Assembly (NCBI GenBank): GCA_964019425.1
Contig: OZ025800.1
Span: 744,001 to 808,000 of the forward strand
Origin: Flectonema sp. DT1601
Lineage: Eukaryota
Direction of reading: 5' to 3'
Length of the DNA: 64,000 bases
The position numbers were made by a program, and so were the translations under genes. Positions 4,259-57,241 of the stretch are shown piece after piece. Every line of letters starts with the position of its first letter. Positions within the stretch are counted from its first letter, which is position 1. A model generated the notes under the pieces. That model made no database searches. It saw only the letters and a program-made list of their open reading frames with translations, and was not told where the DNA came from.

Positions 4259-6088
4259 TTAGTTATTTCTCTCAAACTCTTGCAGAATCTTTGCGAAGTC
4301 CGCTGCGAGCTTCTTTCTCACAGCGCTGACACGTGCCGCACTCTTCTCTGGGAGAGGCAGTGCGGGGTTGTTGCATGAAGGCCATCTGTTTGTTATTAAT
4401 ACCAAAAGGACTACAACTACTCTGTGAGAGGAACCTAAACATACCTATCACTTAATCCTGTCTGTGTCATGATTGATATTCTACTTTGCTCATAATTGAG
4501 TAGAGGTGATGGGATTTCCTTAACTTCGACTGCTGGCCCTCCGAGGTTTCCGCCAGATTTCTGTAGTTGAAATAGTTTCTTCTATTTTCTTAAACTAACT
4601 TAATAATACTAAATAGCTAAAGACACATACCAGATGTTGAACTACCTCACCCAATTCCTTTGCAATTCCTTTCATGAACAACGCAGCTGTTTCATACTCA
4701 AGAGGTGGTCTTGTCCTACTCGTCAACATCGCACCAGACTGTTTGACTATGGTATCAACGTATGGCATGCTTGAAAGTGGTCTCCAAGCTGTGAGACCTT
4801 CCTTAAGAACAACATCAGAGTCAGAAATCTGTTTTTTTTTTTTTTTTTTTTTTTTTAGTATGAGATGTTTATGAATAACAATCACAACAACACCAATGCA
4901 ATAAGAGATAATAGAAATACACACCTGAGCAACAATATAAAGGGTCTGTGTCTGAGTTACTATCGATCTGTCTATTTCAATAGAAACCTTCTTAGCACGA
5001 GGCATGGCAGGTTCCATCCAGAATCCAGTCTCCGACTGCACAGAACGGATAGCAGCCTCTTCTGGGGTCTCTCCCTTGTTGAGTTTAGTCTTCGGAAAGG
5101 TCCATCCATTCGGGCAAAGAGTATTGCGAACCATTAGTAGATGTGTCATTTTATCATTCACTAACACTCCTCCAGCAACCGGTTGAGACATTTTGAACTC
5201 ACACAGTTTTCGGTGAAATAAGATTGCGACCTTCTTTTTGTTAACTTCATCCTTTTCATTATCAAGTCCTCCCATTGGAGGGGAGTCATCTGGCCATAAG
5301 TTGCACAGAGTTGGTTCTCTTTTTAATACTTCAACGGTAAAATCTTTAAGAAGTCCGCGTTCAAATTTTGGTAGTTGAGAGTTAGATGACAGCTCATCGA
5401 GGTATTGCCAAAAAGCTTTCTCAATTTGAATCATGGCACCCTCAATAGTGTCACGTGTGTCTGGAGGAGCCTTTCTAATATGAATATCAATAAGTTTTTG
5501 TAAGACTTGATCCAACAAATTTAGTTGTTGCTGCTGTTGCTGTTGCTGCTGTTTCTGCTGCTGTTCAGCATGTCTTCTTTCTGGAGTACCTCCTCCTCCC
5601 ATCGGGGTACCTGTTGAATGTACTTTACCACAGCCCTGACATTGTATGTTCTTTTGATATTTCTGAACTCTCATATTATTACCACAATGTGAGCATGGTA
5701 CAACCCTCCATTGTGAATTCGATGTTGGAGTGCTTGTTGGTGAGTTTCCACGGCGATCAGTTGACTGACGGCGTTGGTTACCTGGAGTGTTTCTACCACC
5801 TGATGTTTATTATTTATAATTAACATCAGAATTAAAAAGTCTACATCAAAATAAACACATACCTGGTTGGTGAGGAAACGACGTCACTGGACCAGAATGA
5901 TCAACTTCTTGTGGTGATCTTGATGATGGACTTGGTCTCATCTTCCCTGGTGTTGTTGTAATCTTTCCTTGAGTTGCAAATTGAGAAAGGAAATCTTGAA
6001 CATGCTGTTGAGTACCTTCTCTTCTCACACCCCCTTGCACAGGGCTATCACGTCTGCGACTATTCGCAAAAAGTTGGTCCATCGACAT
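4259..6088 (-). CDS. DCP2: Dcp2-like mRNA decapping protein (Box A + degenerate Nudix box, N-terminal zinc ribbon), 513 aa, 5 exons
   Basis: Exons 6088-5863, 5799-4925, 4828-4631, 4560-4445, 4385-4259 join in phase (1542 nt) via GT-AG introns. Box A-like QIEKAFWQYLD. Nudix region PVAGGVLVN...GWTFPKTKLNKGETPEEAAIRSVQSETGF. Confidence 0.85.
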
Positions 6089-9906: not shown

Positions 9907-10254
9907 AGAATTGTACTGTTTTGCGTTTGATAGGTTGATTATTATTCATACTAATAATAATCGAATAAAATAGTACAAATAAACATACCACATGTTCGAC
10001 AATGAGCGGGTCAATGAGCCAGAACTGCGCCTGAAAGTTCTTTATTTTTGTCGCTGTTTTCGTAGCCGACATCTTGTTGTGCCTCCTGCGATGAATAATA
10101 ATTATTACATAAGAAGGTAAAGCAAATTATGAGAGCGATAATTTTATAAAGCTGATAAAACACGATACTACAATCAAAGACCTCGTCGGTACGATGTAAT
10201 TGACTCTTCTAAAAATGATATTTAGGAAAGGCATTCATTCAGTCTATAAATATA

Positions 10255-13880: not shown

Positions 13881-14354
13881 GGTGTTTATATTTGTATTCC
13901 CTGCCTCAACCTGATGAAAGTAATTTAGAATGAATGGTTCACATGATATTATTTTGTGGCTTCTTGTTATGTTAACTAACAATCGGTTGAAATTCCTTTT
14001 ATTTTTTTTCGACGGAATTTTTACTTTCCTTGTTTCCATTTTCGTAAAAAGTTTCATTCTTTTTTTTTTTTTTTTTTTTTTTTTTTGTTGTTGTTTTTTT
14101 TTTTTTTCTTTTCCCTTGTCCTCATAATCTTCTTTTTCCTCCTTCCCACGAAAGAGACTTGACTCACGCGGAGTGTTTTTTTCTCTTCCTTTTATTTTTT
14201 TCTTTCTTTTTGTGATGTGGAAATAGCATCCTATCAGAGTGTTACCATCGAAGAATCGCTCCATCCCAACGACAATGGAGAGCGATAGCCGAGCTGTTAC
14301 TCTGCCGAAGAACATCGTCATTACTCGAAAACGGATTAAAAGGTGGGAAAAAAA

Positions 14355-14534
14355 GGGGGGGTAACTTGATACTAATATTAAATGGAAAGCAACTTGAAAC
14401 TGGCCAAAACGAGAATAGATTTCGGCCAAACCTGGTTGCAATTTAAGAAAATCAACAATTGGTATCGATAAAAAATCCCATATGTGCTGTCGAATATGGG
14501 GATTCGGGGGCCACGTACTACAGGTTGAGCGCCC
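14355..14534 (+). repeat. Dispersed repeat family 1, copy A (about 180 bp)
   Basis: Near-identical to 19731-19911 (inverted) and 43422-43592. Begins G-run+TAACTTGATACTAATATTAAATGG and ends GGGGGCCACGTACTACAGGTTGAGCGCCC. Confidence 0.95.
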
Positions 14535-19730: not shown

Positions 19731-19911
19731 GGGGCGCTCAACCTGTAGTACGTGGCCCCCGAATCCCCATATTCGACAGCACATGTGAGATTTTTTATCG
19801 ATACCAATTGTTGATTTTCTTAAATTGCAACCAGATTTGGCCGAATCTTATTCTGGTTTTAGCCAGTTTCAAGTTGCTTTCCATTTAATATTAGTATCAA
19901 GTTACCCCCCC
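19731..19911 (-). repeat. Dispersed repeat family 1, copy B (inverted)
   Basis: Reverse complement aligns end to end with 14355-14534. Confidence 0.95.
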
Positions 19912-20854
19912 TCAGAGCTTGATAATACAGTATCAAATTTACCCTCCCTCACCATTCCTATCCCCTTTCTGTTTCCTTTTTTTTTTTTTTTTTTTTGTTT
20001 GCACCCTGCATTTTTTTTCGGAGAATAATGAAATCCAGTAATACGATGGATAAAACCCTACATTATAGAGCTTCAAATGTTTTAAAAAAAGAAAAAAAAG
20101 AGGAGGGGAATCTGGATTGGGGAAGGGAGAGGGAAGGGGAAGATTTGCCAAGTGCAATAGTTATGAACCTATAAAATCGGACAAGAACGTCTAAAATACA
20201 AAATAAAAAGAAACTTCGGCAGAATGTCGTGCCTGAGTTCCTAAGCTTGGCAAACAAAGAAGCTATAATGCGCGATGAGTCATAGAGAGACAAAATACAT
20301 CAGACACAGTTACTTTATCTTGGTGTCAATCATTCCGCTCTCTAACCTTCTTCATTTTAATTTCTACAATCCAAATGCCAATATGAAGAGAAATATATTA
20401 TTATTCTTTTTTTTTTTTTTTTTTTTTTTTCGTTTTATTTACTTCGTCTTTTTCTCAAATTCTTTTTTTTTTCTCCACACCATTCTTTATTTTTTTTTTA
20501 AATAATTCCTTGTCTGGGTAAACCCGCCATTGATACTTTCCTTCGAAGTCTCACACACCAAAAGGAAAACTAAAAGAACTGGTCCTAAACCGTCAGCGGC
20601 AGCGTAGTTCACGATTGCAAAAATAAAATGCCACACGGCCACGTGAACATAATAAGCCAATCATACACATGATTAATCACAACTAGTCTGATGAACCAAT
20701 GTGGTCAAGGTACGAGGGGAGGGGGCGACCCTGTAAATATCCATACGGCCGAGTGCGCCCAACTGCCTTAACTTCTTGACTTCGCGACTTGCTGTCATAA
20801 ATATAGGTTAGTCCAGATACAGTATCCTTTGGGGACGACGGGAAATAAAAACAC

Positions 20855-28766: not shown

Positions 28767-30446
28767 CTGTCTCTTAGAGTCGCTCTCTCATTTTTTGATG
28801 CTATTTCTTTAATGGAAATTACGACTGGATAGCATACTTGAAAAAGGGGTAAAAGTATCTGGTCTCTCAATTCCTTCCATAAGTCTGTTTGTGAATATAA
28901 TTTTAGTGAACAGCAATACAAAACAAAATGACGTACTCGCACACAGAATCCGAAGGGAGTGCTTTACCGTTGAGTAAAATACAACTGGGAACCTCGGCTG
29001 AGGTACATCGTACCTCTTTCAGTGTTCTGAATTTGATTCGTTAGATCGTCTTCACTTTTCTCTGCATTTTGTAGTGCGTGTTTTTTAGGAGCTGAACAGT
29101 TTCAAGGTGAAGCTGTTGGAACATCGCAGCCTGCCAGTTTGGAGTGTAAAGAAAGGCTAGGTATGCGGTCTCAACATATCCCAATCCAGCAATGCACATG
29201 TACTTGCCAAGAAAACCAAAGAAGATCACGTAAAGAAAGGGAAGTGGGAATGATACGGAAGAAAAAAAAAAAACAACATCTGATTTCCGTTTATACTTCT
29301 GCTATGACATAATCGGTGATACGGATACTTCAAAATAAAATAATATTATGATACATAAAAATATTATCGAATCTACACAAACACGGATGGACCAATTGTT
29401 GATTATTTTATATCTTTATTGCAGGGAAGTCAAACCTCGGGAAAAGTTCGTGGGGTTTCTACTCATTTTGACACGATAGTCTCCCAAGTTAGAAAGACGA
29501 ACTGATCAGGAGTAAATGACTACCCAGAAAACCTTGCGAAGCAGTTATCTACCTGAGTAAGGGGGGGTTGCAAGTCGCACATTTCTGCTGTATCAGTCCC
29601 ACCGTAGGCCGCAGAGTGCACGAACAAGCTTTATTAGGCCAGCAACCGTACCAAAAGGAGGCACGCAGTAAATTTATTGTCACACGTAGATTAATACAAA
29701 TAGAAATACGACGGCGAAGAGGGCGAGAATACGCAACGGCGTGACCCAAATTTTGATCGCCATATTCTATTTTACTGCACTTTAATCTTATTCGTTCCAT
29801 TCAACCGAGACTATTAAAACGTAACAAAAACATAAAGTAAGTGATGTCAATCTGGGGTCTCACTTTTTCTGCACATATTTCAGAGTTGTTTGCAGCAAAG
29901 CTGTGTCAAATCAAGAATGGATTTTTTTTTTTTTTTTCGTTTCTTTTCATTTTCTTTATTTTTCATGCCGTGAAGAATAGATATGTCCTTATTTCTTTGT
30001 TATCTACAATTCTATCTTGCTGACGCAAGCTGCTTCCTGTCACAGTTGTGGGTAAAAAATGCCAAGCTAAGCCCTCAGAACACACTTCTACTCCACGCGA
30101 CCATTCTTATCCTGACCCAAACAAGTGATACATTAAAAACAATGTCACCAGCCTGGTGGATCTCGTTGAAAACCTTATCTCTCTTTCCTTTTTATTTCCT
30201 TTTTTTTTCTTAAGTCACGACTGTGCATTACCACATCCCAAAATCTGAAAAAAATGAGATGTCAGAATTTTAAAAAGGAATTATTGCAAGAAGAAACCAG
30301 TCTGCACTAGACGGGGAAATGCGTTCCTCTCTTTTCTTTCTTTCTTTCTTTCTTTTATTCTGGTTAAAGAAATAATCGGCATTGCTAATAACGCAAATTC
30401 GTAGATAGACTACCACAATCCGATAGAATATGAGTTTATTAGTCGG

Positions 30447-30570
30447 TAGTAATAATTATCAGTCAATCAAAAAAAACCGAATTCAAAAAATTCGTAGGAC
30501 GACAAACAAATAATAGTTGGTTTCGGGCTAAAAATTAAAAAAATCTTTCCTCGGACCATTCCCCTTACCC
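30447..30570 (+). repeat. Dispersed repeat family 2, module 1
   Basis: AATAATTATCAGTCAATCAA...TTCGTAGGAC...GTTGGTTTCGGGCTAAAA...ATCTTTCCTCGGACCAT, matching 44070-44197. Confidence 0.9.
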
Positions 30571-30760
30571 GACACTCTTCAGCGAAGAAAGTAAGGGTGT
30601 CAGGCCTTGCCTTTGCAAACATCACTCTAGCAAAGGGACAACATCAAGATGGTCATATCTTTTACTATTTAACAGTCCCCCCCCCCATATAAATATCAGT
30701 GAACGCGAGATACCAACTAGTGAGTGGCGCTGATGTTTTACGGGGGGATAAATAAGTTTA

Positions 30761-36256: not shown

Positions 36257-39200
36257 CTACGGGACCCTTCTTGGAATACGAGAAGAGGGTAAGCCTTGTG
36301 AATAATCGTTCGAGGTTTTCACAGGAGGAGAAGAGTGGATAAAGTTCGGTGATCCAACCGGTGAAGCGTCCTCGTGTCCGATATCAGAAATTTCATTGTG
36401 GTGTATTGGTAGTATTACTCCTTTTGTTTTAAGCATTAATAATTTATGAATTGAATTCCTCTTCAAACGATTATCACAGAGAATTGAAAGATCACTCGTA
36501 TATCCCTGAGAAGCTATTTGAAGAACACATCCGTCGACTTGACGAATCTTTTGAATTTTTTCATAAATGATCTCCTTAATAGGCTCAACAGGAGCAGGGC
36601 CAAGAGAGGTTTGAGCATGCTGTGATGAAGCAGTACGTCCACCAGCAGGACTAGGCGCACGCCTATGAGTTGACTGATGATGAATTGATGCCCCAATCGA
36701 TTGCTGCTTCATAGCATCAGCATTAAACACTAATAAACATGTTGATGTAAATCTTAAGCAAATCGGAGTTCGACTTTGTCTTGATAATTGAATACCCTTA
36801 CTTCTAAACATGGCATCATCAAGCCTGAGTCCTCCATTGAATTCATAACCGTCTATGGAGTTCAATTCCTTTGAGTCCAGCATGTCTTCTTTTGACTTCT
36901 TTATCTTACTGAGCTTTTCATTTAACCTTGCTTCCTCTTGTTTTAATTGTTGTACTCTTGTAGTCGCCTCATTCTCTTCTGACTGGAGCTCCTTTATAGC
37001 TCTGTGTTTATCCCATGCTTCCCTTTCTAAGTCAGTGAGTCTTTCGTTGTATGACTCTTGTAAGTGTTTTGCGGCATGTTTCTTATCCTGTTGTTTATTA
37101 TATTATTAAGATCGTGTGAGGATGAAAGGAATATAAAAAGCTGTTTTACATACTCCGATCTGCGCCTTTAAAATATCTAGCTGTCTGTACTTATCGTTGA
37201 CTTCAGACTGAATGACTCGATGTTGTTGTTGTACTTCTTCGGAGTTCAACTTTTCAAGCATCTCCCTCCTGATGTTATTGCAGTAATTTATTTTTGTCTT
37301 ATTTTGAATTTAAAACTGAACAGCTGCTGTAAGTCAGCAGCATTGTTGTCTTAACTTTTCTAAATTAAAGTAGTCACCATACCTTTCTTGCTCAAGAAGC
37401 GTGTCCATCTTGCGCAGCTGGCGGGTAAGATCTTGACGTTGAGTTTCACCCTGTTATTGTTTATGTTAAGTAAGTAGAGTAAAGAAATATTAATAAGATT
37501 GATTGTTCAGTTTAGTTAATTTAGTTCATGTTCACTTCACAAGATAAAATAATACCTCAGAAAGACTTTTTGTGACGTCTGCGAGCTTGCGCGTCATTTC
37601 AGCGCGATCTTCATTCTTCGCTGTGGATTCAGAGAGTTGTTCGCGGATGGTTGCATTTGATGTTTGCAGAAGTCGTAGTCGATCTTGCGTTTGCTGCAAT
37701 TGCCTGAGAGTATCCGTCCGCTCCTGTTCTGCAGAGTGCTGCATATCACGTTTAGTAAATTCGTGTTCTGCCCTTTCTGTTAGTAACTCTCTTTTGAGGC
37801 GCTCGGCTTCACTGGTTCTGACGAGCATGAGTTCATTCTTCAAGTCTTCGTTGGCGTCGGATGACATCTTCCATTCTCCGTTGATTTGTCTTTCAAAAGT
37901 AAGTTGTTTACCCTGTTCAAGTTTACCTTGTAGCTCAGTTTGTTTCTTTCGCATGCGGGTTAACTCGTTTTCTAGTAGTTTGATGCGTTCGTCTTGTCGC
38001 TTTGTATCTTCACGCTGAAGCTGAATAGTTTGTTGTTGTTGGTGGAGTGCTGAAGTAGCTGAAGCTTCTTGTAAAGCGATGTCGTCCCTGGTTTGATTCA
38101 TTGTGGCTTGAACAAGTTCTGATGCTCTTCTTTGAATAGCTCTCGATACATCAGATCCAGCAACACCTGAAGTAGGAACACCATTACTACTCTTTGGATC
38201 TTGAATCCATGAAAATGGATTTCCTTCTACTTCGATGGAAAGTTTTCTTCCAGTAGAAGCTAGCGGATTATTTAATACAAATGAAGGATGCTCTCCGAAC
38301 TGGAGCTCGCACCTCGACGGTAGTTGCACTGATCCCGATGACGGGTTCATTAGATTTCCATTTAATTTAACATCACCAAGTGGTAATAAACTTATTCTCT
38401 CACCCGCTACCTGAAATACAGCATACGGCTGAGTTGCACCATCGTCTTGTTGAGGGGAAAGGCCAGTGAGTTTCACAGAGTGGATTGAAGAGTTTTCAAA
38501 AGGAAGTGTTGAGGGGTCAGGCCAAGGGACTGCAACTTTACCAGCAGAAGCGTCATCCCAACATGAAAGTAAGTGTTGGTACTCAAAACCTTGTCCTACC
38601 TCTCTTGGGGTATTAGACTGTGACTGTGGATGACTACCTGTAGTCCTGTCAGTGCTACTTCTTCTCATCTTACCAAAAGTTGATAAAGATACTCCAAGAA
38701 CTGAACTAGATCGTAACTTTGCTGGGTGTTGTACAGCCAATGTGTTTGAGGCATTTGCTGCTGCAGGTTCTTCGTCGTCTTCGCCTTCACTCTGCTCATG
38801 CTCAATTTGAATGTAGCCGCCCTCTCTGATATTTAAAATGTCTTCTTCTGCTGTGAGTTCTGCAGCCTCCGCGTTATTAATTCTTGTATTCGCTGCATCC
38901 AGTGCACGAGAGACGCTGTCGACTAACCTTCGAGGAGTTTTGTGTCTCGCAGAATCCTTTCTTCCTCCGAGACTTGCTGATGTTGATCGACGGCGATTTG
39001 TCTTCTTGCCGGTTGTGATTTCTGCAGATCGAACTCTCTGAACCTTTCGCTGCTCTTTTTCATGGTCTTCTTCTTTGAGAAGCGTGTGAGCCAAGTCTCT
39101 TCCCCACTCGTTGGGTTTTGATCCCCGCAGATGCTCAGCTACTTCAATATCTTTGAATCCAAAAGCAAGTGTTGGCTGCATGAATGATGGAGTTCTCTTG

Positions 39201-40714
39201 ACACCAAAACCTGATGCACGTCTCTCTAGAGAGTTGTCTTGTGTAGAACTTCTTTTACGCTGTTTACCACTCGTGCTATTCGATGGAGACTTTGGTGGCG
39301 AGTAGTTGGCATCATCAGCTGCGAGTGCAGCGTACGATGAGATTGAAGTAACAAAAGTAAATCCGTCCTTCAAAAACCAAATGAAAGGTTGATTATATGC
39401 TGTCTCTGTCTGTAAGAATGCAACACTTGCCCATAATGCTGATGGAGTACCTCTGTGACAAATAGCTGCTTCACCCTGTCCTGCTGCCGCTGTAATACTT
39501 CCATATAAGGATGATCCCTGCTGGAGTTGCTTATTAAGTTCTCGTATCTGAGAGCGAAGGTCTCTTATAATTCTTCTGTTTGACGCCCGTTTGTTAACTG
39601 AAGGAACGTTCTTAATCAATTTCACCCTTTCGGCGTAGCGAAGGGTAGTAAGAGTTTCTTCGTAATTTATCAAACACGGACTTAGTGTGGCCAACATGAC
39701 TGTTCTTGAATTTCCACCTAAATTATCCTTCAGCAACCAAGTAAGCGTACTGTCTCTATAAGGGACGTAGTTTCCATCAGTCTGAACTGACGGGTCATTG
39801 ATGTCGGCAAGGCGCTTAATTACCATACCCAGAGAAGTTAAACTTTTATTGATATTAATTCCTTCCTTTAGTGTGTCTCCCTCAGTACCAGCTTTGTTGG
39901 TACGTTCACTTCCTGCTAAGTCGACGAGGTTCACGCGACTGATCCATTCGGTTGAGTCACCGGTCTTCTTATCAAACTCACTTTTTGTTATAGTTAAACA
40001 AAATACTGCATGGGATCTTGATGAACGGTCGTTCATCTTAGTACGAGAAGTATGTCTCGTTTTGTTACCTAATCTCATGAGTTCCGCAACTTGTAGATAA
40101 TGTGATACCTCAATGGCGCTTAAGTTTTCAACGTATGGTCCTGCCTTTGGATCCTCACGTGGCCTTAAGGAGTCATTAGTCGCAGGGTCTAACAGACAGT
40201 AGACTTTCTCATTATAAATTTCGTAGTAACTCATCTCTACTCTGAATGAGATCCGTTCTGCTTTTGAAACTTCCGAATTAATTTGATCAAACAACGCCTT
40301 ACACATTCTCGGTGTCAGCCCAGTACTTGCAATAAACCTCGCGTGGTCGCTGTGTGGTGAAGGGGGTCCCATCATCGTGTAAGTCTTCCCAGAAGATGTT
40401 TGTCCATAGGCGAATATGCAAGCATTGTATCCAGATAAGGCGTGTTTTAATTGTGCAGCAGCAACATCTTCATAGATTTTATTTTGAGAAGCGAAGTTCT
40501 TCTCATTGCTGTCACCAATCGACCAGTAGTTGTAATCAAAGTGAAACTTCTTCTTCGCTCCTGTCGCCGGATCGATTAGCGTCGTTGACCGTTCAGAGTA
40601 ATTCATCGCCAGAGTCAGTTGTCCGAGAGAACCACCACGATCTTCCTCCTGCGGGGTTAGTGGTCTCGCACGTACAGCCACAACGACATTTGTCGCGCCG
40701 AATGAGCTTGCCAT
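36257..40714 (-). CDS. Kinesin-3 (KIF1/Unc-104-like) motor with split FHA, coiled coil and C-terminal PH-like domain, 1390 aa, 4 exons
   Basis: P-loop FAYGQTSSGKT, switch I SSRSH, switch II LVDLAGSER, kinesin-3-type VPYRDSTLTWLLKDNLGGNSRT. Exons 40714-37556, 37450-37383, 37268-37154, 37087-36257 join in phase (4173 nt). Confidence 0.95.
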
Positions 40715-40992: not shown

Positions 40993-42162
40993 TTATAAAG
41001 AAAGAGAAGCAATCAACTGCTCTGTAAGATACTCATCGTCAATACTGAGAGGTGCTCCAGTACATCCGATAGCTTTGAGATGATTGAAATGTTTAACAGA
41101 ATCTTGAAGATCAACTGTTCCAAGCTGTCTAGGAAAATGATTAGGATCACAACCAGTGATGAGTGATGAAAGAGTACATCCCATAATAACAGATGGATGA
41201 CCAAGTGGAGGAAGAAGTGATTCAGAAGAAACCCATCTCTTTGGAGCATATAATATCTCTGTCTTCACTGATGATAGTCTAATTGGACCAGCTTCTGTAG
41301 CGACTACATCGTGTTGATTCTTCATTCGATTCCACATGTCATTTGTGTTAAAGATATGTGGGGCTGAGTCATCTATTACAATAGTTCCTTTTTGAAGTTT
41401 CTCAACGCTCAAAATACCTCCAATATTCGTAGCCCCTACGATGATGCTGCTTCTGTACACCTCACTGTTAACAGAAGCACCCGCAGTACTACAAGCAATT
41501 GTAACTTTGCCGTTATAACCTAAAACCGTTGTTATTTCTTCTTTAAGACTTTGAAGATCATGCTCACGTTGAGTAACATCACATAAAATAATTTCTTTTG
41601 AATGCGGCAATACGGTTACGACAAGTCGAAGAGCTGCAGCACCAATTGAACCCAAACCAATGAACGATAAGACTTCGGTTGATATGGCTCTTGAGAATAA
41701 TTCTACAGAATAAAGAATATTAATTGCAATACATGCCGTGGTTGTTGCATGACCAGTAGTGATAATCGGAGGTGATTGGTTCAATAGATCTGCTCCATGA
41801 GACGTTGCTGACGGGATCAAACCTGTCAAAGAGATACATTTAATTGAAAGACTATGAGCAAGTCGCATGGCATCGTCGATTAATTTTGTTATGTTGCAGC
41901 CTTCGTCGAATATCTCACTTTCGAATCTTGGTAGAATTAAAGTTGCTATCTTTCCGATTCCTTCAATTTCTGTTACACTCCCAACGAATACGGATTCCTC
42001 AAGGTACTTCTTCTTAACTATCTGTCTACCTTCTTCACTGTCAACCATTGAGTCATTTAGGTACCCCAATGCTCCTCCCACAACACCTGTAATCTCACCT
42101 ACAAGTATTTGATACACTAGACTCGTATCAGTTTGTGTTCTGTATCCTACTCCCTTCGTCAT
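40993..42162 (-). CDS. Acyl-ACP-reductase-like NAD(P)-dependent oxidoreductase (COG5322-type), 389 aa, intronless
   Basis: ISLTGLIPS, ITTGHATT, Rossmann FIGLGSIG, IIVGATN, GTIVIDDSAPH and late MGCTLSSL occur in the order seen in the cyanobacterial AAR family and related bacterial NRPS/PKS-associated reductase domains (recognised by eye). Confidence 0.8.
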   Translation of the reverse strand: MTKGVGYRTQTDTSLVYQILVGEITGVVGGALGYLNDSMVDSEEGRQIVKKKYLEESVFVGSVTEIEGIGKIATLILPRFESEIFDEGCNITKLIDDAMRLAHSLSIKCISLTGLIPSATSHGADLLNQSPPIITTGHATTTACIAINILYSVELFSRAISTEVLSFIGLGSIGAAALRLVVTVLPHSKEIILCDVTQREHDLQSLKEEITTVLGYNGKVTIACSTAGASVNSEVYRSSIIVGATNIGGILSVEKLQKGTIVIDDSAPHIFNTNDMWNRMKNQHDVVATEAGPIRLSSVKTEILYAPKRWVSSESLLPPLGHPSVIMGCTLSSLITGCDPNHFPRQLGTVDLQDSVKHFNHLKAIGCTGAPLSIDDEYLTEQLIASLSL

Positions 42163-43421: not shown

Positions 43422-43592
43422 GGGGGTTACTTGATACTAATATTAAATGGAAAGCAACTTGAAACTGGCAAAAACTAGAATAGGGTTCGGCCAAACCTGG
43501 TTGCAATATAAGAAATCAACAGTTGGTATGGATAAAAATGCCATATGTGCTGTCGAATATAGGGATTCGGGGGCCACGTACTACAGGTTGAG
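43422..43592 (+). repeat. Dispersed repeat family 1, copy C
   Basis: About 12 differences from copy A over about 172 bp by manual alignment. Confidence 0.95.
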
Positions 43593-44069
43593 TTGGGGGG
43601 GTAAAGTATCTACTTATTCTTTTTTTGGGGGTAGAACAGGGTCTTCAGGCTATTTTCTGAGTATATTTAAGAAAAATTAAATATCTGGATTGCATCAGAG
43701 CTAACTAAACGCTAGTTATGATACAGGTGACTAAAGGTAATGTTAGTATAAACAAACCGAAGAGAGGAGTAGGGAGAAAAGAATTTCAAGTGTAATCAAG
43801 GGCAACTAAATAACAATAATTCATTAAAAGATACTGTCAAAGAAACAAAGGATTAAAAAGAAAATGAGCATGGTCACAAAAAGTGTTAAAAATAAACACA
43901 GAATCGCACAGCAGAGAAAACACGAAACCTGAAGCAACGCTTCTACCCTCTTGACAAGATTCCGCATTGCAAATGAAAAAGACAAATCAAATATAAAACG
44001 TACTTGACGGAAAGATCTTTCTCGCAAAGAAAGAATCCCCTCAGTAGCTTGGCCTTTTTCAAAGAAAGT

Positions 44070-44817
44070 TAGTATTAATAATTATCAGTCAATCAAAGAA
44101 AATCAAATGCAAAAATTCGTAGGACAACGAACAAATAATGGTTGGTTTCGGGCTAAAATTGGAAAATCTTTCCTCGGACCATCCATCCCCCTTACCCAGT
44201 ATTCAAAGAAGGTAAGTTAATATTAGTATCAGCTGCGGGAGAAGTAATCGACTCCCAGCTCCCACGTTGCCCAGAGGAAAATAAGTAAAGAAAATACAAG
44301 GGAGTGGGGGGGTGGTGAAACTTTGACCAAATGTAAAAACAGTAACAACTTTAGGTATTAATATAGTATTAATAATTATCAGTCAATCAAAAAAAAAAAA
44401 AGGCAAAATTTCGTAGGACAACAAACAAGTTGGTTTTCGGGCTAAGATTAAAAACAATCTTATTAATTAATTAACTAACTATGTCGTATTAATATAGCTA
44501 TAATATGAGTTTATTATAAAAAAGTGCACTAAATTAAAATATAAAAAAAAAAAAGAAAAATGTGTTCCATAATACACTTGTAGTTTCAGGAGCCTTAATC
44601 TTATAATACTTGTCCTTCTTAGGCCTTCATCATATAGTTAGTATTAATGAATATCTATTAGTCAAAAGAAGGGGAGAGGGCGGGAAAATGCAATCGAATG
44701 CAAAAGTTCTTAGGACAACAAACAAATAAATGGTAACTATATTGTATTAATATTGTTAGTATTAATAATTATCAGTTAATCAAAAAAAAGTAAAATTTCG
44801 TAGGACAACAAAGTTGG
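44070..44817 (+). repeat. Cluster of repeat family 2: four progressively degenerate module-1 copies and one module-2 copy
   Basis: Module 1 at 44070-44197, 44364-44461, 44639-44733 and 44757-44817 (all share AGTATTAAT...TAGGACAAC). Module 2 at 44497-44586. Confidence 0.88.
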
Positions 44818-46091
44818 AATAGTCAGTTAGTTAGTATCATTAATTAGTTAGTGAGTAATATAAAACTAATATCAAGTACCCGACTGGAAGAAATATTCGT
44901 AGTTGTTAATCAAAGAAAAATTACGACAAAGGTGGAAAAAAAAATAAAAAAAAATCTTTTTTTCTTCCATACTGTACTATACAGCATCTTTTTTTATAAT
45001 ACGACTATATGTGCCATATGCCCATGTACCACGAAAGAAAATAGAAACCCCTGGAACAGTACCGAGGACCGTTCACCCCCCCCAGATGTCCAAAGCATTA
45101 TTGTACTGTGAGCCTACCGAAAAGGTTTAGAAGAGTACTACAAAAAATGGGCAGCACATAGCCGTATCACTCAGCAAGAAATGAAAACAAAAGGATCAGG
45201 TAAGATGACAGTCAGTTTAAGGTCATAACTGCGCCGGACAAAGAAAGGAAGGAAAGGAACGGAAGAGGGGGTGAAAATATAAGGAACAAAATTGTGTAAA
45301 TTAATATCAGAAAACTATTTCTTGTAAATGTAAAAGAAAAAAGAGAAAATAATAATTGGTTTTTATCGTGAATTTTACGTATAAAACTACTGGTAATTTA
45401 TTTATCGAGTCAAGGAAGCCAGAGACATCTGGAGAAGGCTCACACACCGTGACGAGAAGAGTCACAATTTGACCAGAAGTAAATGACTTCCCAGACCCAC
45501 CGCATGCACGAAGCAGGCAGTGTAAGAGAAGGCCAACGCCAATTTTTCGCCAATAAAATAAACTAATGGTTTCCGTAATGGACACACACGTCAACTTCCG
45601 TCGTTTTTTTTCTTTTTCCTACTCAACATCTTCGTTGTCGAGGGGGAAAAAAAAAAAGTGAAATCAGGCTGCTTCTTTGAAGAAAACAGTACCAAGAGGC
45701 CTGGCAGCTACATCAGTTTTTTTTTTTTTTTCTTTTTTTTTTTTTTTTTGTTATTTTCGACAATCAGTCGAAATTTGATGGGAGAGAGTGGGTTGCATTC
45801 GCAGATTATCTACTGCATTTAACATGCAAGCGAGAAAATAACAATCAGCGTGCAGTACCCGGTGTTTGACATAAAAAATGGAATAAACAGCACGAGACTA
45901 ACAACAACAATAAAAAAATACAATAAAAAAATAAAAAAAACAAATAACTATTGATTTTCACGCGTGGGTGGATTTTTTCCGAGTGAGGTAAAGAAACGGT
46001 AACCCACCCACAAGTTAAAATCTGCATCTGATTTTGCATCAGATAACCTTCATTTATTTTACTATAGGAGGCTTCGAAGGGAAAATTTACC

Positions 46092-47955: not shown

Positions 47956-49878
47956 CTAGTCAGAATCAACATCCATGTCAGTTGGACCAGAGTTGTTGCT
48001 GGTCTCGTCTTCATCCGATTCTTCATCTTCTTCAACTTCTTCATCTGAATCTTCGAAGTCTTTGGATTTCTGTTTTTAATTTTTGTAATAACAAACAATA
48101 ACCTGATTCCTTTAAGAAGTACAATCACACACCCAATACTCATAAAACCCGTATGTCCATCTGTTATTACTTTCACAATCAACATTCTCATCATCGCTCA
48201 GGAGATCGATGTCTGCCATTTTGTCTTTCCAGTCCTCTCTTATCCACGATACTCTAAACTTTCCAGGTTTAATGACACTGTGGTTAGTGTTGATTGTTGA
48301 TAATTATTATTAGTAAGAATTTATTGTGTTTCTACATACTCTTTAACAACTGCCCATGCCCAAACATTTTCCACCCAGAGACTTAATTCGGTTCCTTCAC
48401 GGACACCACTTGCTCCGATTACTTCGCGTGTTGGACCGTCGAACTGTTTGTGTTTTTATTCTTTATAAGAAAGTTATGAGAGTCGGAAAACGGTTGTAAA
48501 CAATACATACAGAAGCCTCACTACAGTCATCACACATTTCATTGTTTTCATAAGAATGAGTAAATTGTTTTCGTGCTGTTTCAAAACTGATTGTTGTTCC
48601 TTTTGAAAGGCGATCTTTCATTTCGTTATACCTCCCAAAGAATGGAACTGTTATATTATATTCCTTATCATCGGATTTGTTTTGGTCCACGACGACAATT
48701 TCGTATGTTGAAGAGCACGTCATTGAGACGATGTGTTTGTCTTCAAGGCAATATACCATTTGGGGTATGTGTCGTCTTTCGCGCATATCGTAGTCCTTAC
48801 CTAACAAGGACTTACATTTAACACCCCAGTTCCAAACGGAACCGTCTTCTAATAGCATTGAGTGAAATTGTTTTCCTCCACAAACTTTTTTAATCTTTCC
48901 AACTGGAACTAATATGTCAGTAGGTGTCAAAGAGGTATCTGTTGATGATGCAGCAACACGACCCCAACCTCTTAGTACAGATCTCCCTTTGATGTCGGAT
49001 ATAACAAATGAGGCTTCTGGACCGCTGCCAAGTCGGAAGTTTGTTTCTTCAGATTCTTCGTTTATTTTTATTTCTGTTGGAGACTGCATAGTTCTGATAG
49101 TACCAGTTCCTAAACGGCCATACTCACCAAATCCTGAGGTGTAGATTTGTTTTCCAGATCTGACTATCACATGTTGCGGTCCAGCAGCTATTTCTTCTAC
49201 TTCAACTTCTAAATCGGTTTCAAAAGTTGGGATCTTAGTTGGTTTTGGGATCACACCATCTGGTGGAGGTGCTGCACAACATTGACCATCACCACCATAA
49301 CCCCAAACATAAAAATCACCTTCCTTATCTGTTGCATAAGATGTATTTCCGCTAGCAGTGATACTCGTTGCTTGACTCATCTTTACCGGTTGCGGTTCTA
49401 TTCTTAGCGGTCTGTTTAAAGCCATACCACATTGACCTTTACTATTACTTCCCCATGAAAATACTAATCCCAGATCTGTTCTTGCTAAGCAATGGTGAGC
49501 ACCGCATGCTATTTCTACAACACGTTTCTTGTCGAGTGCCTTGATTGGAATCCACTCGTAGGATTGTTCTAACTTTTTAGGTTCAACACCCAATTGACCA
49601 AAGGCATTACAACCCCATCCATACACTTTAGAGTTAGATCCTAAAATGAGGGTGTGGCGGTGTCCACTTACGATCTGTTTTGGTGTCGTTTTAAAATCGG
49701 AAAATCCCGGCAGGTGGACAGGAAAGTCCAACACCTGATCGGTTCGTGTTTCATTTCCCGGGTTAGAAATATTAACGTCCCCCCAAATATAAGTTTCATA
49801 TTCTGCTTCTTCAGAGTCGCTAACACTCGATGAGTCGCTGTCACTATCGCTATCTTCGGCCTTCCGTTTCCCAGGCAT
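47956..49878 (-). CDS. RCC1-repeat beta-propeller protein with C-terminal Trp-rich beta domain and acidic tail, 576 aa, 4 exons
   Basis: RCC1 repeats (VYGWGCNAFGQLG, IACGAHHCLA...VFSWGSNSKGQCG, GFGEYGRLG). N-terminal basic MPGKRK. Exons 49878-48511, 48443-48340, 48277-48133, 48069-47956 join in phase (1731 nt). Confidence 0.92.
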
Positions 49879-52420: not shown

Positions 52421-55400
52421 CTATTCCTTATCAGAACTAGACTTTACAAGTGGAGCAAGCTCTCTTGCTCGTTGATTAGCTGGTGAAAGAGATCCCTCTG
52501 AGGGTTGGGAACTCTGTCGTAATGGAGGGAGAGGAGATCTTAATGGAAGAGGTACTTGTTGATCATCACCGTCATCGTCATGAGGTGGTTCAACTGTAAG
52601 AAGAGTCAGTGTATTCGTCTTTACTGCTGAGACAGCTAAGTTAGATTCCACAACAGTATTTGACAGTCCAATCGTTTCATCGAAATCCTCTTCGTCCGAC
52701 GTAGTATCAATAGACTTCGCTGTTTGTGGATCTAAACCACCTAGCGACCTACTCATCTCTAATTCTTCTCTCACAGTCACATCAAGAGGGTTCTTAACAC
52801 TTGGAGGCAATACAGGCATTCTTATACTGTTCGCAGTCAGTGTTGGTCTCCTCAGTGAAGGTTGAGTTGTCTAGTAATTGTTAATTTAAAAAAGATCATT
52901 ACATTCCAAACACACAAATAATAAATACATACAACTCTACGAGACTCCATCCTCCTACCAATGTATCTTGAGTATCTGTCATCAGCAATTTCTAAGACGG
53001 CCTGTTTTTATATTATTACTCACCTTGACCTTGTCGATGATGTTTAATTGAAAGAAAAGGTACGTTTAAAAAAAGAAAACAAAAAAAGGGAAACATATTC
53101 CGTCTTATCGACCAGAAGACGTTGTCGAGTCTGGTACTCGGAAAACTTGTTTAATTTTTTCCCGTTTGAGAATTCAGAAACGTGCAGCGTCTTTGCGAAG
53201 TATTCTCAAAAGGTTTACGACAACAGCACACCTTCCTAAACCCAGCAGATAACAAGGGATTGCTCTTTACTTTCCAAAGGGGAAAAGCATTATTATTTTC
53301 ATTAAGCGTAACAAGCCCCTACTTTACACCCTTATGGGTACAAGTATGATAACCAAATAAATAAAAACACAAACCTGTAAGCAATGAGGGTAATTATCAA
53401 CCGCCCAACTAAACCCACGCTGGTCTAAAACGTATACCTGACAATAAGTCTTTGCTGTGATGGTATATGGTGATGGAATGCCAAATAGTAAGGGAAGCTC
53501 ACCAAAGAACGCTCCCTCACTTAAGACAGAAGTTGAAGAATGAGACATTACAACACTACCTCTTGTGATCATATAGAAGAATGATGCAGGTTCACCATGA
53601 GTGATGATTACAGAATTAGGTGTGAATGCTTGAAGACGAAGTTTAGAAACAACGTCTGAAATAAAAAGATCATTTGCCTCATTATAAAGCATGGGAACAG
53701 ATTCTAACACATGAGCGTTCAAATGATACGACAGAGTTGATCTGAGATCTGCTGGGAGTGGCCAAGATAAAGCATCAAAGTCAGAACCAGTGTGATTCCC
53801 ATCAAGTAAGAAGTCATACTGACTAACGTGATATGTTCTTGTTGATCCCCACAAGAATCTAACGTATCCGATTACTTCTGCTCGGTACTGTGCTGGAAGT
53901 TTTCGTTCAACAAGAAAGATCTTTAGCTGCTCAACTAGTCGCTCATATTCTTTTTGATTAGGATTTGTAGAATCAAGTAAAACAGCAACATAAGCAATGA
54001 CGGTTGCCCAGACGGCAACACCTGCAAGTTGAGCTACCATGACCACTAGTGTCTGGGGATCACTCTGCGGCCAACGACAACCGTATCCCGACATTGCTCG
54101 TATTGCCCAATCAAAACAAGTTGTATATCTGTATAACAAATCCTTATCCTCAAAGGTGTTACTATCTAATTGAAAATATCTCAAATACTGATCACCATTA
54201 CCCTCCTCATCAATGTTTGATGTCCATAATATCCAATGTAATGCAGCAGCTGACATGTGAAGAATAAAGAACACTCCTAGTAATAGCTTTACGGCTTGGA
54301 CTCTAATTGGGGATATTTGTGACATGTGTCTAGCAACAAATGCGGTGAATAACTGATTAAATGATAACATGTTCAGTAGTCGATTGGCGCGAAAGGGAGG
54401 ATCCCAAATCATGTTAGCATCCCAAGCAAATAGAGCAGCAAGAAATTCTATCGGAAAACACGCTAGCACTGACACAGCAAATGCAACCGTTTTGTAGTAG
54501 TGTGGAGTACTTCGAAGGGTTGTTGCAATTGATATCCAGTAGACTGAAACATCTGCAACCCATTGGAGCACTGCCATAAATATCGAATATGGCAAATCAA
54601 ACCCAATATGTAAAGGAATATTAACACAATTAAATACTAACACTGCTATCTTTAGGGTATTCCATATATCTTTGTGAAGCAATCGAGAAGCTGCTCGTTT
54701 ATCATCTTTCTCTTGTTGTTCACTTCTTGTTACTAATGTTAACCTCCGTAGACGAACTTCCTTTCTCTTATCGAGGTTGGTTGACGCGCTGTTAAATTCA
54801 CCAATTGTTTGAAGCATTCCAGCGGTGTTGTCGTCATCCACTAATTCAACTAACTGAGCAAGTCTTCCATCTTTCCATTCTTCCATACTGGAGACGGGAA
54901 GTTTTTGTAGTGCGACAGCGAATATAGACTGCCTGAATTGATATAAATGTTCTGTACTGCTCTTAAAGTCGCTCCTCGGATGTGGTCCAATTCCCTGGAA
55001 TAATCCTCGACTGCGAAGCATTTCACCTGCTGAGACTGCCATCGTTTCAGTGATGTCAAAGCAGTCGACTAACCAAGCAACAACATCAGCCCCCACAAAT
55101 ATATTATCAACTTTGCTCATACAACCTGTTCGTTTCGAATGTAAGAAATGTTTTGATACGTGATTGCTGAAAACAGCAGCGAATCTTTCCAGTCCGGTTT
55201 CAGCTTTTTCTGCTGCTTTTTCAGCAGCTTTCCAGGCGTCTTCATCTACAATCTGTTGAGCAGGGCTAAATAAATTAGATGAAGATGATACCATTGTCAT
55301 TACAGGATCAGCTGCACTAAACACGTCGCGTGATTTCCTTCTTGCTGATGGGATGGCTGCCCTAATCAATTCAGCTAAGTTGCTATTTTCAGACTTTAAA

Positions 55401-57241
55401 GTTGCAGCAATAGATGGCCTGGGACCATGTCTAAAGGTAGGCATCGCGTCTGCGGGCTGAATGCAAGTGTCCGATTGATTGAGAGCGTCTTTAGTTCTTC
55501 CTGATAAGACGTTGTTTAAATGCTCCAAAAGCCATTTCATTGGCACTCCAGCTGGGGGACTCTCGCTCATGGACTCAGCGATTGCAACGGCGCCCTCATG
55601 CTCGCGAGCATTGACTGCGGAATTGATATCGAGTAATGGTTCTATTCTGGCATCCGCAGTTAAAACATAAACAGTTTTATGTGGACGTGGATTTGGAACA
55701 CCCTGAGGTTTTAATCCACCCTTCTCAGGCACAACTACATCAACAAGAGGAATAGCCCGAAGCCCACTTGGAGAACCATTCGGAATAGGAGATAAACAAG
55801 GTTCCCTATTTTGATTTGCCTGACCGGGTACTTCTAATGGATTGAATGATAAGACCTCAGCTCCTATTTGTCTTCCAAAAAGAGCCAAGTTTCTTGCAAT
55901 GTCACGCTGTGTTGATATAATACCGTGTACTAACGCACTCCTTCCTCTGACTCTACTCATTCCAGTAAGACAATCACCTGTTGATATACCAACACTCCAT
56001 GAGGGTTTTCTTTCAGTAATACTGCTGCTGTTGTGAGGTGCTTTGAACATTTGAACTAAACTTGAACAGAATGAAAGAATTCTTATATTCAATTCCTTGC
56101 CGCCAACCCACCAGACGTTGCAGCTGTTCGATCCAGCCCACTCTAGTCGGGCTCCGTATGCGTGACACATGTCCGCTATGCTCTCAAATGTCGTTGAGTT
56201 TTCAAAAGAAATATCTAACCTTTCTTTATAATCAACAACCACAGTTAAGAATGTACAGGTGTGACGCTTCCATGGTTCGAAGGTGACATTTCGTGAAAGG
56301 TTTGGAGTACCATGAGGATCGGTACTACTTCTCTCTGATGCTTTATGTGAAAGTGTTCGAAGAGGAAGCGGAGTAGTATCAGATCGATCCCTTGAGAAGG
56401 TTCTAGATGAAGGAGATGGTATTGTAAAGTTAACTCTTGCTCTTGCAGTCGCCCCCTCACTTAAGTGAGAACCAGTAGAGACACAAAGTGGGTCGACTTC
56501 TGGTGCACTCAAATGAAGTGGTGGCATTCCTGGTGATAATACAGCAGGGAGTGGTCCAGCTTCAGTACCTGATGGCTCTGCGAATATAAAAGCTCTTCCT
56601 GATCTTCTTCCAACAGCTGGCGCTGAACACATCTCTCCATCTTCATCTTCTCCTATAGGGGTAACAAATTCAGTGTTGAGTCGATCACATTCACCGAAAT
56701 CATTTATAGCTAGTTGGAGGTGTTCAATAATTCGAGTTCTGGCACATTGAGCACCAAAACCAACGCACTTAATTTCATGTGGTATAAGTGGATTATATAT
56801 CTCCATACAGGTGTCAGGGAGTTCAGGTATGAACCCCCAAGCTGCTTCACGACCAATTGATACCAAATGATGAGATAAATCACGTAGAGGAATAGAAAGG
56901 GTTTTATCAATAAATAATTTCAACAAAAAGCACAACGACAACGACAGAACTAAAGCCACAGCAACAGCTGGCCCAACCATACTAACATCTGGTGAGGAAG
57001 AACACGAAGACGATAGTTGTGAGCAAAGAAGATCAGCCTCATTAAGTCCTAATAAGGTACTACTCATGACTTTCTCAACACACGAAAATTGATTATAATT
57101 TATACTTCCTCGTGAGATCTGCTCAATCCCGAGAGCTGCTCCGATTGTCACTAACGAGATTCCAACCTGCGCAGCGAATATAATTCGCGAGGACTGATAT
57201 CCACGAATGTCCTCCATCTGAACATCCTCCTCTGAGAACAT
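52421..57241 (-). CDS. Fusion protein: 2TM + HAMP-like + degenerate class III nucleotide cyclase + DEP + 6TM cation channel + cyclic-nucleotide-binding domain, 1461 aa, 3 exons
   Basis: Exons 57241-53375, 53001-52933, 52870-52421 are all phase 0. DEP FVGADVVAWL...AVSAGEMLRSRGLF...LYQF. S4-like FRANRLL. Pore FDWAIRAMSGYG. C-linker LPAQYRAEVIGY...LPADLR. CNBD IITHGE...GAFFGELPLL. Confidence 0.9.

What the first reader, a model, noticed from the sequence alone, without database searches (positions are those of the whole stretch)
40993..42162. Intronless bacterial-type acyl-ACP-reductase-like gene: probable horizontal transfer
Seen: a single-exon 389-aa ORF with SLTGLIPS, ITTGHATT, GLGSIG, VIDDSAPH and a late GC motif (MGCTL) positioned like the catalytic Cys of cyanobacterial acyl-ACP reductase. 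It lies co-oriented in the array next to the most repeat-dense spacer (42.9-44.8 kb). Established: AAR makes fatty aldehydes for alkane synthesis, and related domains occur in bacterial NRPS/PKS proteins. Inference: a stand-alone, bacterially derived thioester reductase giving this protist an aldehyde, alcohol or hydrocarbon-type pathway.
Basis: partly seen in the sequence, partly recalled or inferred. Interest (0 to 1): 0.7.

Follow-up and report, generated by a model that had tools for sequence, protein, structure and literature searches.

The report
Bacterial chain-release enzyme kept by diplonemids
This gene encodes a stand-alone member of a bacterial enzyme family (the 'terminal amidation domain') that was reported only from bacteria; close relatives occur in several diplonemid protists and one early kinetoplastid, so it was likely taken from bacteria long ago, and it likely cuts a finished product off a carrier protein rather than making alkanes.

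Summary
The 389-aa single-exon ORF is real (minus strand) and all motifs are present. [quoted passage not shown] It belongs to the related terminal amidation domain (TAD) family: carmabin CarI TAD matches at E 2e-51 and structural Z 48, AAR at Z 28 with no significant sequence match. Every TAD signature residue is kept: catalytic Cys329, TTG, the NAD(H)-selecting Asp195, and Asp265 where AAR has Gly. The TAD paper found 757 homologues, none eukaryotic. Here the closest relatives are stand-alone proteins of four diplonemids, the kinetoplastid Papus and two unassigned contigs. They form one clade (SH-aLRT 100) with diplonemid branching that follows host groups, and codon use is host-like. The transfer is therefore likely old, not recent. 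The donor is unresolved, and a rooted test did not show nesting inside bacteria, so transfer rests on distribution. No carrier, NRPS/PKS or ADO gene lies in the window. 'Intronless' and the repeat-rich spacer carry no weight. Most likely role: in-trans release of a carrier-bound thioester through Cys329, probably as an amide; no TAD activity has been shown by anyone. Verdict: first eukaryotic members found here of a known, mechanistically unsolved family.

The parts
40993..42162 (-). Single-exon gene, 389 aa, stand-alone TAD-family protein (P0001)
41755..42147 (-). N-terminal domain (about residues 6-136), including the first strand and helix that TAD has and AAR lacks
   Evidence: model strand 8-11 and helix 15-20; TAD aligns from residue 4-6, AAR only from residue 28; boundary taken from CarI
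40996..41754 (-). Rossmann NAD-binding domain with the catalytic helix (about residues 137-389)
   Evidence: boundary taken from CarI
41752..41760 (-). Thr135-Thr136-Gly137 = CarI 2042-2044, positions the catalytic Cys
41731..41733 (-). Cys144, invariant in 8 of 8 eukaryote-clade proteins, about 1% in the 459 other rows; role unknown
41641..41658 (-). GxGxxG P-loop (169-174) = CarI 2076-2081
41578..41580 (-). Asp195 = CarI Asp2102, which selects NAD(H) over NADP(H) and CoA in CarI
41359..41373 (-). DDSAP loop (264-268) = CarI 2169-2173; Asp265 is Gly in AAR
41176..41178 (-). Cys329, predicted catalytic nucleophile (= CarI Cys2238, AAR Cys294)
37532..40714 (-). Downstream neighbour: eukaryotic kinesin, 278 bp from the gene; shows the host context
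   Evidence: PF00225 E 2e-100
48463..49878 (-). Nearest upstream neighbour of 120 aa or more: RCC1-repeat protein; host context
43422..44821 (.). Upstream spacer repeats (one ~175 bp dispersed element; 3-4 copies of a second element); not shown to be part of the gene

Best explanation
This is a stand-alone member of the terminal amidation domain (TAD) family in a likely diplonemid genome, likely acquired once from bacteria before or early in the split of diplonemids and kinetoplastids, and predicted to take an acyl or peptidyl group from a carrier protein encoded elsewhere onto Cys329 and to release it, most likely as an amide, with NAD(H) bound beside the cysteine. Shown here: family, fold, conserved catalytic and cofactor residues, stand-alone form, one eukaryotic clade, host-like codon use. 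Inferred: bacterial origin (from distribution), timing, action in trans on a phosphopantetheine carrier, and amide release (from CarI/VatR/HcaD pathway products and shared residues). My odds: family about 0.97, old bacterial origin about 0.85, carrier-bound thioester as substrate about 0.75, amide rather than aldehyde about 0.6-0.65 of that.
For: Sequence: best PDB match is CarI TAD, E 2.4e-51 over residues 11-373; 30% identity over 385 columns against 18-20% to four AARs. Structure: AlphaFold pLDDT 91.9; Foldseek TM 0.86-0.90 for TAD against 0.59-0.61 for AAR; Z 48.3 (rmsd 2.6, 381 aligned) against 27.9 (rmsd 3.2, 312 aligned). All paper-defined TAD residues map one to one and are near-invariant in 459 other rows (C329 450, D195 456, D265 456). 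Carrier link: 119 of the 120 listed long homologues carry a PP-binding domain. Of 80 GTDB loci 67 are fused, 8 stand-alone (6 of these with an A or KS domain in the locus) and 5 cut. Stand-alone bacterial copies sit beside NRPS, PKS or FAAL-ACP genes, so action in trans has precedent. Origin: the family spans 11 bacterial phyla and had no eukaryotic member among 757. A profile search of 5.8 billion clusters returned only the 8 input eukaryote-clade clusters (555-664 bits) above a drop to 403. Six of the other seven are named or unassigned euglenozoan-type records: D. japonicum, Namystynia, Artemidia, Hemistasia, Papus, and two unnamed. The clade has SH-aLRT 99-100, with window+D. japonicum 99 and the hemistasiids 97-98. 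Codon choice fits the host best of 19 ORFs. Three orthogroups labelled NRPS are listed as diplonemid gains, one present in Hemistasia and PhM-4 (Papus) and absent from D. papillatum (PMC10161547 supplement).
Against: No TAD has shown any activity in vitro; the amide role is a correlation from three cyanobacterial pathways. Every characterised relative of the fold (AAR, PigE, TamH) is a thioester reductase. No carrier, adenylation, KS or PPTase gene lies in the 64-kb window, and the genome is not held. The donor is unresolved: the sister group changed in each FastTree run (support 0.88, 0.82, 0.33) and is open in IQ-TREE. With AAR as outgroup, the tree with all bacterial TADs as one clade was not rejected (p-AU 0.716; its likelihood was 11 units higher), so nesting in bacteria is not shown. 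The NRPS-labelled orthogroups were seen only as table rows. Their label may be a BLAST label of TAD-like proteins themselves, and they include Sulcionema and Rhynchopus, where no TAD homologue turned up here. The clade has its own invariant residues (Cys144, Pro293, Arg309-Trp310), which could mark a changed function. GC3 (0.27) is the lowest of 19 ORFs (others 0.29-0.37).
Confidence: 0.6

Rival explanations
1. Same family and origin, but it works as a reductase: acyl-carrier to Cys329 thioester, then NADH reduces it to a free aldehyde that goes on to an alcohol, amine or wax.
For: Same fold and cysteine as AAR. All 8 clade members match the PigE model weakly (best E 3e-12). PigE and TamH reductase domains reduce thioesters, TamH with NADH and only on an ACP. 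CarI TAD binds NADH slightly better than NAD+. Minimal FAAL-ACP + TAD operons resemble TamA + TamH.
Against: It keeps Asp265, which in CarI stacks on the nicotinamide and is Gly in AAR. Known TAD pathways end in amides. CarI and VatR TADs released nothing with NAD(H) from substrate mimics. No ADO or aminotransferase partner was seen in the window.
Confidence: 0.2
2. After transfer the enzyme was re-used without any carrier protein, as an NAD-dependent cysteine enzyme on a CoA ester or a small metabolite.
For: Stand-alone in 8 of 8 clade members, with no partner gene nearby. Long stem branch and clade-specific invariant residues. The paper's cluster 4 consists of discrete TADs outside gene clusters.
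Against: Asp195 blocks CoA binding in CarI. Stand-alone bacterial copies examined mostly flank carrier genes. Eukaryotic pathways need not be clustered (general knowledge).
Confidence: 0.13
3. The gene is much older in eukaryotes (for example from the mitochondrial ancestor or an early Rickettsiales-like symbiont) and was lost nearly everywhere else.
For: One FastTree run placed stand-alone Tisiphia/Rickettsia-like proteins as sister (0.879). The rooted test does not exclude a position outside all bacterial TADs. Diplonemids host Rickettsiales and Holosporales symbionts.
Against: That sister group vanished under the mixture model and with more taxa. It needs loss in all other eukaryote groups searched. 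A study of five Rhynchopus/Natarhynchopus genomes found no transfer from current symbionts.
Confidence: 0.05
4. Bacterial contamination, mis-assembly or a very recent insertion helped by the nearby repeats.
For: Bacterial-type gene without introns, with repeats 1.2-2.6 kb upstream.
Against: It lies 278 bp from a kinesin gene, on a 482,785-bp contig. Orthologues occur in five independently sequenced protist transcriptomes, 34-49% identical, with host-like branching. Codon choice is host-like. The repeats are 80-96% identical to copies elsewhere, far younger than the gene.
Confidence: 0.01

Closest known systems
Terminal amidation domain (TAD) of CarI (carmabin; PDB 9E4S, 9E4U, 9E4X, 9E50, 9E56), VatR, HcaD; bioRxiv 10.1101/2024.10.28.620694
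   Same: Two-domain fold over the full length (Z 48.3, rmsd 2.6 A, 381 residues), 30% identity, catalytic Cys, TTG, P-loop, NAD-selecting Asp, DDSxP loop.
   Different: Eukaryotic nuclear gene; stand-alone, not the end of an NRPS; no biosynthetic cluster within 64 kb; clade-specific Cys144, Pro293, Arg309-Trp310.
Stand-alone bacterial TADs (Tisiphia/Rickettsia, Hahella, Burkholderia, Robbsia, Erwinia; FAAL-ACP operons L094/L098/L099/L100; the paper's cluster 4)
   Same: Discrete ~400-430 aa protein with the same motifs, 30-38% identity.
   Different: Most sit next to an NRPS, PKS or FAAL-ACP gene; none is a supported sister of the eukaryotic clade.
Cyanobacterial acyl-ACP reductase (AAR; PDB 6JZQ/6JZU/6JZY/6JZZ; TIGR04058)
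   Same: Same overall topology (Z 27.9, TM 0.6); Cys329 = Cys294; TTG and P-loop.
   Different: 18-20% identity, BLASTP E 0.22; no TIGR04058 match; Asp instead of Gly at 265; extra N-terminal strand and helix; NAD(H)-type site; no adjacent ADO.
Thioester reductase domains of PigE (prodigiosin) and TamH (tambjamine)
   Same: Weak profile match (E 4e-8 to the PigE N-terminal part); AAR-like fold with catalytic Cys; TamH uses NADH and needs an ACP.
   Different: No aminotransferase fusion; score 32 bits against a cut-off of 850; far more distant than TAD.

Membership tests
TAD | Two-domain fold with the extra first strand and helix absent from AAR | tested here: met
   (TAD aligns from residue 4, AAR from 28)
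TAD | Invariant catalytic Cys (Cys2238) | tested here: met
   Cys329
TAD | Thr-Thr-Gly 2042-2044 and GxGxxG 2076-2081 | tested here: met
   135-137 and 169-174
TAD | Asp2102 selecting NAD(H) | tested here: met
   Asp195, (residue only, not binding)
TAD | Asp-Asp-Ser-Gly-Pro loop with Asp2170 | tested here: met
   DDSAP 264-268; the Ala form is the commonest, 224 of 426 rows
TAD | 32-residue crossover from the C- into the N-terminal domain | tested here: inconclusive
   The structural alignment spans the region and the model has a strand at 300-305; coordinates were not inspected
TAD | Position at the end of an NRPS module or in a biosynthetic cluster (usual, not universal) | tested here: not met
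   Stand-alone; no A, KS, carrier or PPTase match in the window. The paper's cluster 4 is also discrete
TAD | NAD(H) binding, carrier access to the Cys, dimer, amide release | not testable with these tools
   Needs protein; amide release is unproven for any TAD
Cyanobacterial AAR | Score over the TIGR04058 cut-off (449.7 bits) | tested here: not met
   No match at E up to 1, 0 of 8 clade members; true AARs score 657-669
Cyanobacterial AAR | Catalytic Cys equivalent to Cys294 | tested here: met
Cyanobacterial AAR | Gly at the position of TAD Asp2170 (DGGYP loop) | tested here: not met
   Asp265
Cyanobacterial AAR | ADO partner gene next to it | tested here: not met
   ADO is adjacent in L132; best ADO hit in the window is 51 aa at E 0.025, elsewhere; rest of the genome not held
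Cyanobacterial AAR | NADPH-dependent reduction of acyl-ACP to aldehyde | not testable with these tools
   Asp195 predicts NAD(H)
PigE/TamH thioester reductase-aminotransferase | Fusion to a class III aminotransferase | tested here: not met
   389 aa, no Pfam aminotransferase domain; 32 of 850 bits
Bacteria-to-eukaryote transferred gene | Lies on a host contig among typical eukaryotic genes | tested here: met
Bacteria-to-eukaryote transferred gene | Nested with support inside a bacterial clade | tested here: inconclusive
   Sister unresolved; AU p 0.716
Bacteria-to-eukaryote transferred gene | Narrow eukaryotic, wide bacterial distribution | tested here: met
   8 eukaryote-clade clusters against 11 bacterial phyla; 624 of 774 weaker hits were not listed
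Bacteria-to-eukaryote transferred gene | Transcript with spliced leader | not testable with these tools
   Orthologues come from transcriptome assemblies; this gene's own transcript was not seen

The most novel reading that the evidence does not exclude
Diplonemids and early kinetoplastids carry an unrecognised, split, bacterially derived non-ribosomal pathway. This stand-alone TAD releases an amide-ended metabolite from the NRPS-like proteins listed as diplonemid gains (such as OG0012259, present in Hemistasia and Papus and absent from D. papillatum), giving one of the most abundant groups of marine protists an undescribed natural product.
Probability: 0.3. Interest if true: 0.75.

Novelty: new member of a known kind. 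Interest (0 to 1): 0.5.

Why it matters
TAD was described in 2024 as bacteria-only and its reaction is unsolved. A small, free-standing copy kept across culturable diplonemids and an early kinetoplastid extends the family to eukaryotes. It points to unexplored carrier-based secondary metabolism in Euglenozoa. It also offers a natural present/absent comparison (D. japonicum or Hemistasia against D. papillatum, if the absence holds) to find the product. Old bacterial transfers are common in diplonemids, so the transfer itself is no surprise.

Tried and rejected
Pfam: no family for P0001. No whole genome is held, so partner genes elsewhere could not be sought. Sequencing runs: none was listed. 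Earlier findings by sequence and by place: nothing. Atlas: top clusters are unnamed bacterial proteins (0.97, 0.96), AAR clusters 0.90-0.91; the N-terminal domain alone gave no usable hit. Rickettsiales donor: suggested, not held; rejected as unsupported. The careful IQ-TREE run did not finish in two tries, so supports are SH-aLRT only. The AAR-rooted test of nesting was inconclusive. The metagenome scan gave 51 loci, none above 38% identity; those long enough to place fell outside the eukaryotic clade. My A/KS tblastn screen missed FAAL-ACP neighbours in L098-L100 (corrected by 93, 94, 97), so 'no A/KS' counts overstate isolation. No peroxisomal-type C-terminus is shared by the 8 proteins (ends printed; motif recalled, no predictor run). 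Literature: searches found no paper placing TAD in a eukaryote; one search found 0 papers with both 'diplonemid' and 'non-ribosomal peptide synth'. The Hemistasia and Papus TAD transcript ids were not found in the supplements of PMC10161547 (file 5) or PMC7052976. PMC12699882 has no NRPS or carrier terms. No complex was predicted, since no partner sequence was in hand.

Full report
Observation. The ORF is on the minus strand at 40993-42162 and encodes 389 aa. Shuffled DNA gives at most 154 stop-free codons in 200 tries. All five motifs are there. It is one exon: the D. japonicum orthologue aligns in one segment of 377 columns with 3 gap positions, and a stop lies 8 codons upstream of the ATG, so no in-frame N-terminal fusion is possible without splicing. 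23 of 26 long ORFs are on the same strand. Neighbours are eukaryotic: kinesin, RCC1, CAP-Gly, formin, kinases, RING. The upstream spacer holds two repeat families that also occur at 14.4, 19.7 and 30.4 kb at 80-96% identity; nothing ties them to the gene.

Host. Inferred to be a diplonemid: the closest orthologue is from D. japonicum (49%), genes run one way in a long array, and several neighbours appear to read into GT introns (by eye). No independent marker gene was tested. In D. papillatum only about 41% of genes have introns (PMC10161547, passages), so 'intronless' says little.

Family. phmmer against the PDB gives the carmabin CarI terminal amidation domain (TAD) at E 2.4e-51 and nothing else significant. 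An AlphaFold model from an 83-sequence alignment (pLDDT 91.9) matches TAD at TM 0.86-0.90 and AAR at 0.59-0.61. VIA-align gives Z 48.3 (rmsd 2.6, 381 aligned) and 27.9 (rmsd 3.2, 312 aligned). Against real AARs fetched with TIGR04058, BLASTP gives E 0.22, aligned identity 18-20% and hhalign probability 57. I read parts 1-3 of 5 of the TAD preprint (10.1101/2024.10.28.620694; supplement closed). It defines Cys2238, TTG 2042-2044, P-loop 2076-2081, Asp2102 (NAD(H) over NADP(H) and CoA) and the DDSGP loop with Asp2170 (Gly in AAR). These map to Cys329, 135-137, 169-174, Asp195 and 264-268. The paper reports 757 homologues, none eukaryotic and none with a known function. It shows NAD(H) binding and carrier-to-Cys crosslinking, but no product release under any condition tested.

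Distribution. The first search gave 189 hits among 7998 scored candidates, 120 listed. The top ones are stand-alone proteins from D. japonicum, Namystynia, Artemidia and Hemistasia (41-49%) and two unnamed proteins on 1.4-kb Logan contigs (37-38%). The exhaustive search (774 hits, best 150 listed) added P0264 from Papus ankaliazontas, the free-living prokinetoplastid PhM-4 (PMC7052976, passages and section 20). Its prey is also a kinetoplastid, so prey carry-over would not change the class. A profile of these 8 found no further clade member among 147 hits at E 1e-40 or better. Longer homologues are NRPS/PKS proteins: 119 of 120 listed carry PF00550 (249 found). GTDB gave 155 confirmed loci, the best 80 kept, from 11 phyla: 67 fused, 8 stand-alone, 5 cut. 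No D. papillatum, Rhynchopus, Sulcionema, euglenid or trypanosomatid homologue appeared, but I did not check that those proteomes are in the collection. That Hemistasia and Artemidia are hemistasiids is recalled; one search says so for Namystynia.

Phylogeny. The eukaryotic sequences form one clade in every tree: FastTree 0.998 (245 rows), 0.991 (426 rows), 1.0 (468 rows); IQ-TREE LG+C20 quick SH-aLRT 99 (54 rows) and 100 (42 rows chosen from those). Inside it, window + D. japonicum (99) and the three hemistasiids (97) pair up as the hosts do; Papus and the Logan pair are unresolved. Seven positions are invariant in all 8 and rare elsewhere, among them Cys144 (1%) and Pro293 (0.4%). The sister group is not stable. 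Against my reading: with three AARs as outgroup (31 rows; 14 rows of the 42-row set left out for time), a tree with all 22 bacterial TADs as one clade is not rejected (p-AU 0.716). The outgroup branch is about 4.8 changes per site, so the root is weak either way. Transfer from bacteria therefore rests on distribution. One old transfer with later losses is simplest; transfer between the two protist groups is not excluded, and such sharing is reported as common in diplonemids (10.64898/2026.01.29.702485, parts 1-3 of 6; tables not seen). Composition fits long residence: GC 0.394, and synonymous codon choice is the best fit of 19 ORFs, though GC3 (0.27) is the lowest.

Mechanism. Shown: the residues and the fold. 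Inferred, step by step: (1) a phosphopantetheine carrier made elsewhere brings an acyl or peptidyl thioester through the NAD tunnel, as for CarI; (2) it passes to Cys329; (3) with NAD(H) bound, the group is released. I commit to amide release, because the TAD-specific Asp265 and Asp195 are kept and the three known TAD pathways end in amides. Reduction to an aldehyde is the main rival, because AAR, PigE and TamH do that (PMC8341465, PMC9594044, 10.1101/2025.08.11.669332, passages). Action in trans has precedent: stand-alone TADs directly follow an NRPS ending in a carrier in Tisiphia, lie in PKS-NRPS clusters in Hahella and Burkholderia, and follow a FAAL-ACP didomain in 4 metagenome loci. No partner lies in the window. 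A lead: the D. papillatum genome paper's supplement lists three orthogroups labelled NRPS as diplonemid gains; OG0012259 is in Sulcionema, Rhynchopus, Hemistasia and PhM-4, not in D. papillatum (rows only). It may be the partner or a label for TAD-like proteins; I could not fetch the sequences.

Novelty. The family is known and solved; eight earlier notes of this scan describe it at the ends of bacterial megasynthases. My searches found no report of it in a eukaryote, within the limits of the library. I rate it a new member of a known kind, in a new domain of life, interest 0.5.

Noticed in passing
L094:2652-8275, L098:2617-8276, L099:145-4219, L100:2669-8291: Conserved three-gene bacterial operon: FAAL-ACP didomain, stand-alone TAD, 7TM/SpoIIE sensor phosphatase (37-71% identity between loci). 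A minimal system that may make a fatty amide or aldehyde signal and could solve TAD chemistry.
   Followed up: partly
L053:39-10091, L051:31-6623: Rickettsiaceae (Ca. Tisiphia, a Rickettsia MAG) carry an NRPS ending in a carrier domain, a stand-alone TAD and a PPTase-like gene; unusual for reduced endosymbionts.
   Followed up: partly
L043:9437-11695; L108:14-1681 and 8578-10176: Glutamine-dependent NAD synthetase-like genes, and in L108 also an asparagine synthase-like amidotransferase, near stand-alone TADs (by eye); possible nitrogen donors, as the TAD paper also noted for NAD synthetase.
   Followed up: no
window 14354-14534, 19732-19912, 43422-43592: Dispersed ~175-bp element, three copies at 91-96% identity in both orientations; looks like a short mobile element.
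   Followed up: no
window 30446-30595 and 44070-44821: Second repeat family, one copy at 30.4 kb and 3-4 degenerate copies at 44.1-44.8 kb.
   Followed up: no
window 4595-5674 (-): Dcp2-like decapping enzyme (box A plus NUDIX). From memory, kinetoplastids lack Dcp2, which would fit a diplonemid host.
   Followed up: no
window 53324-57241 (-): 1305-aa exon with DEP and cyclic-nucleotide-binding domains and ion-channel-like transmembrane segments; unusual domain mix.
   Followed up: no
PMC10161547 supplementary file 5, sheet S1B rows 588-590: Three NRPS-labelled orthogroups gained in diplonemids; my paper search found no text with both terms.
   Followed up: partly
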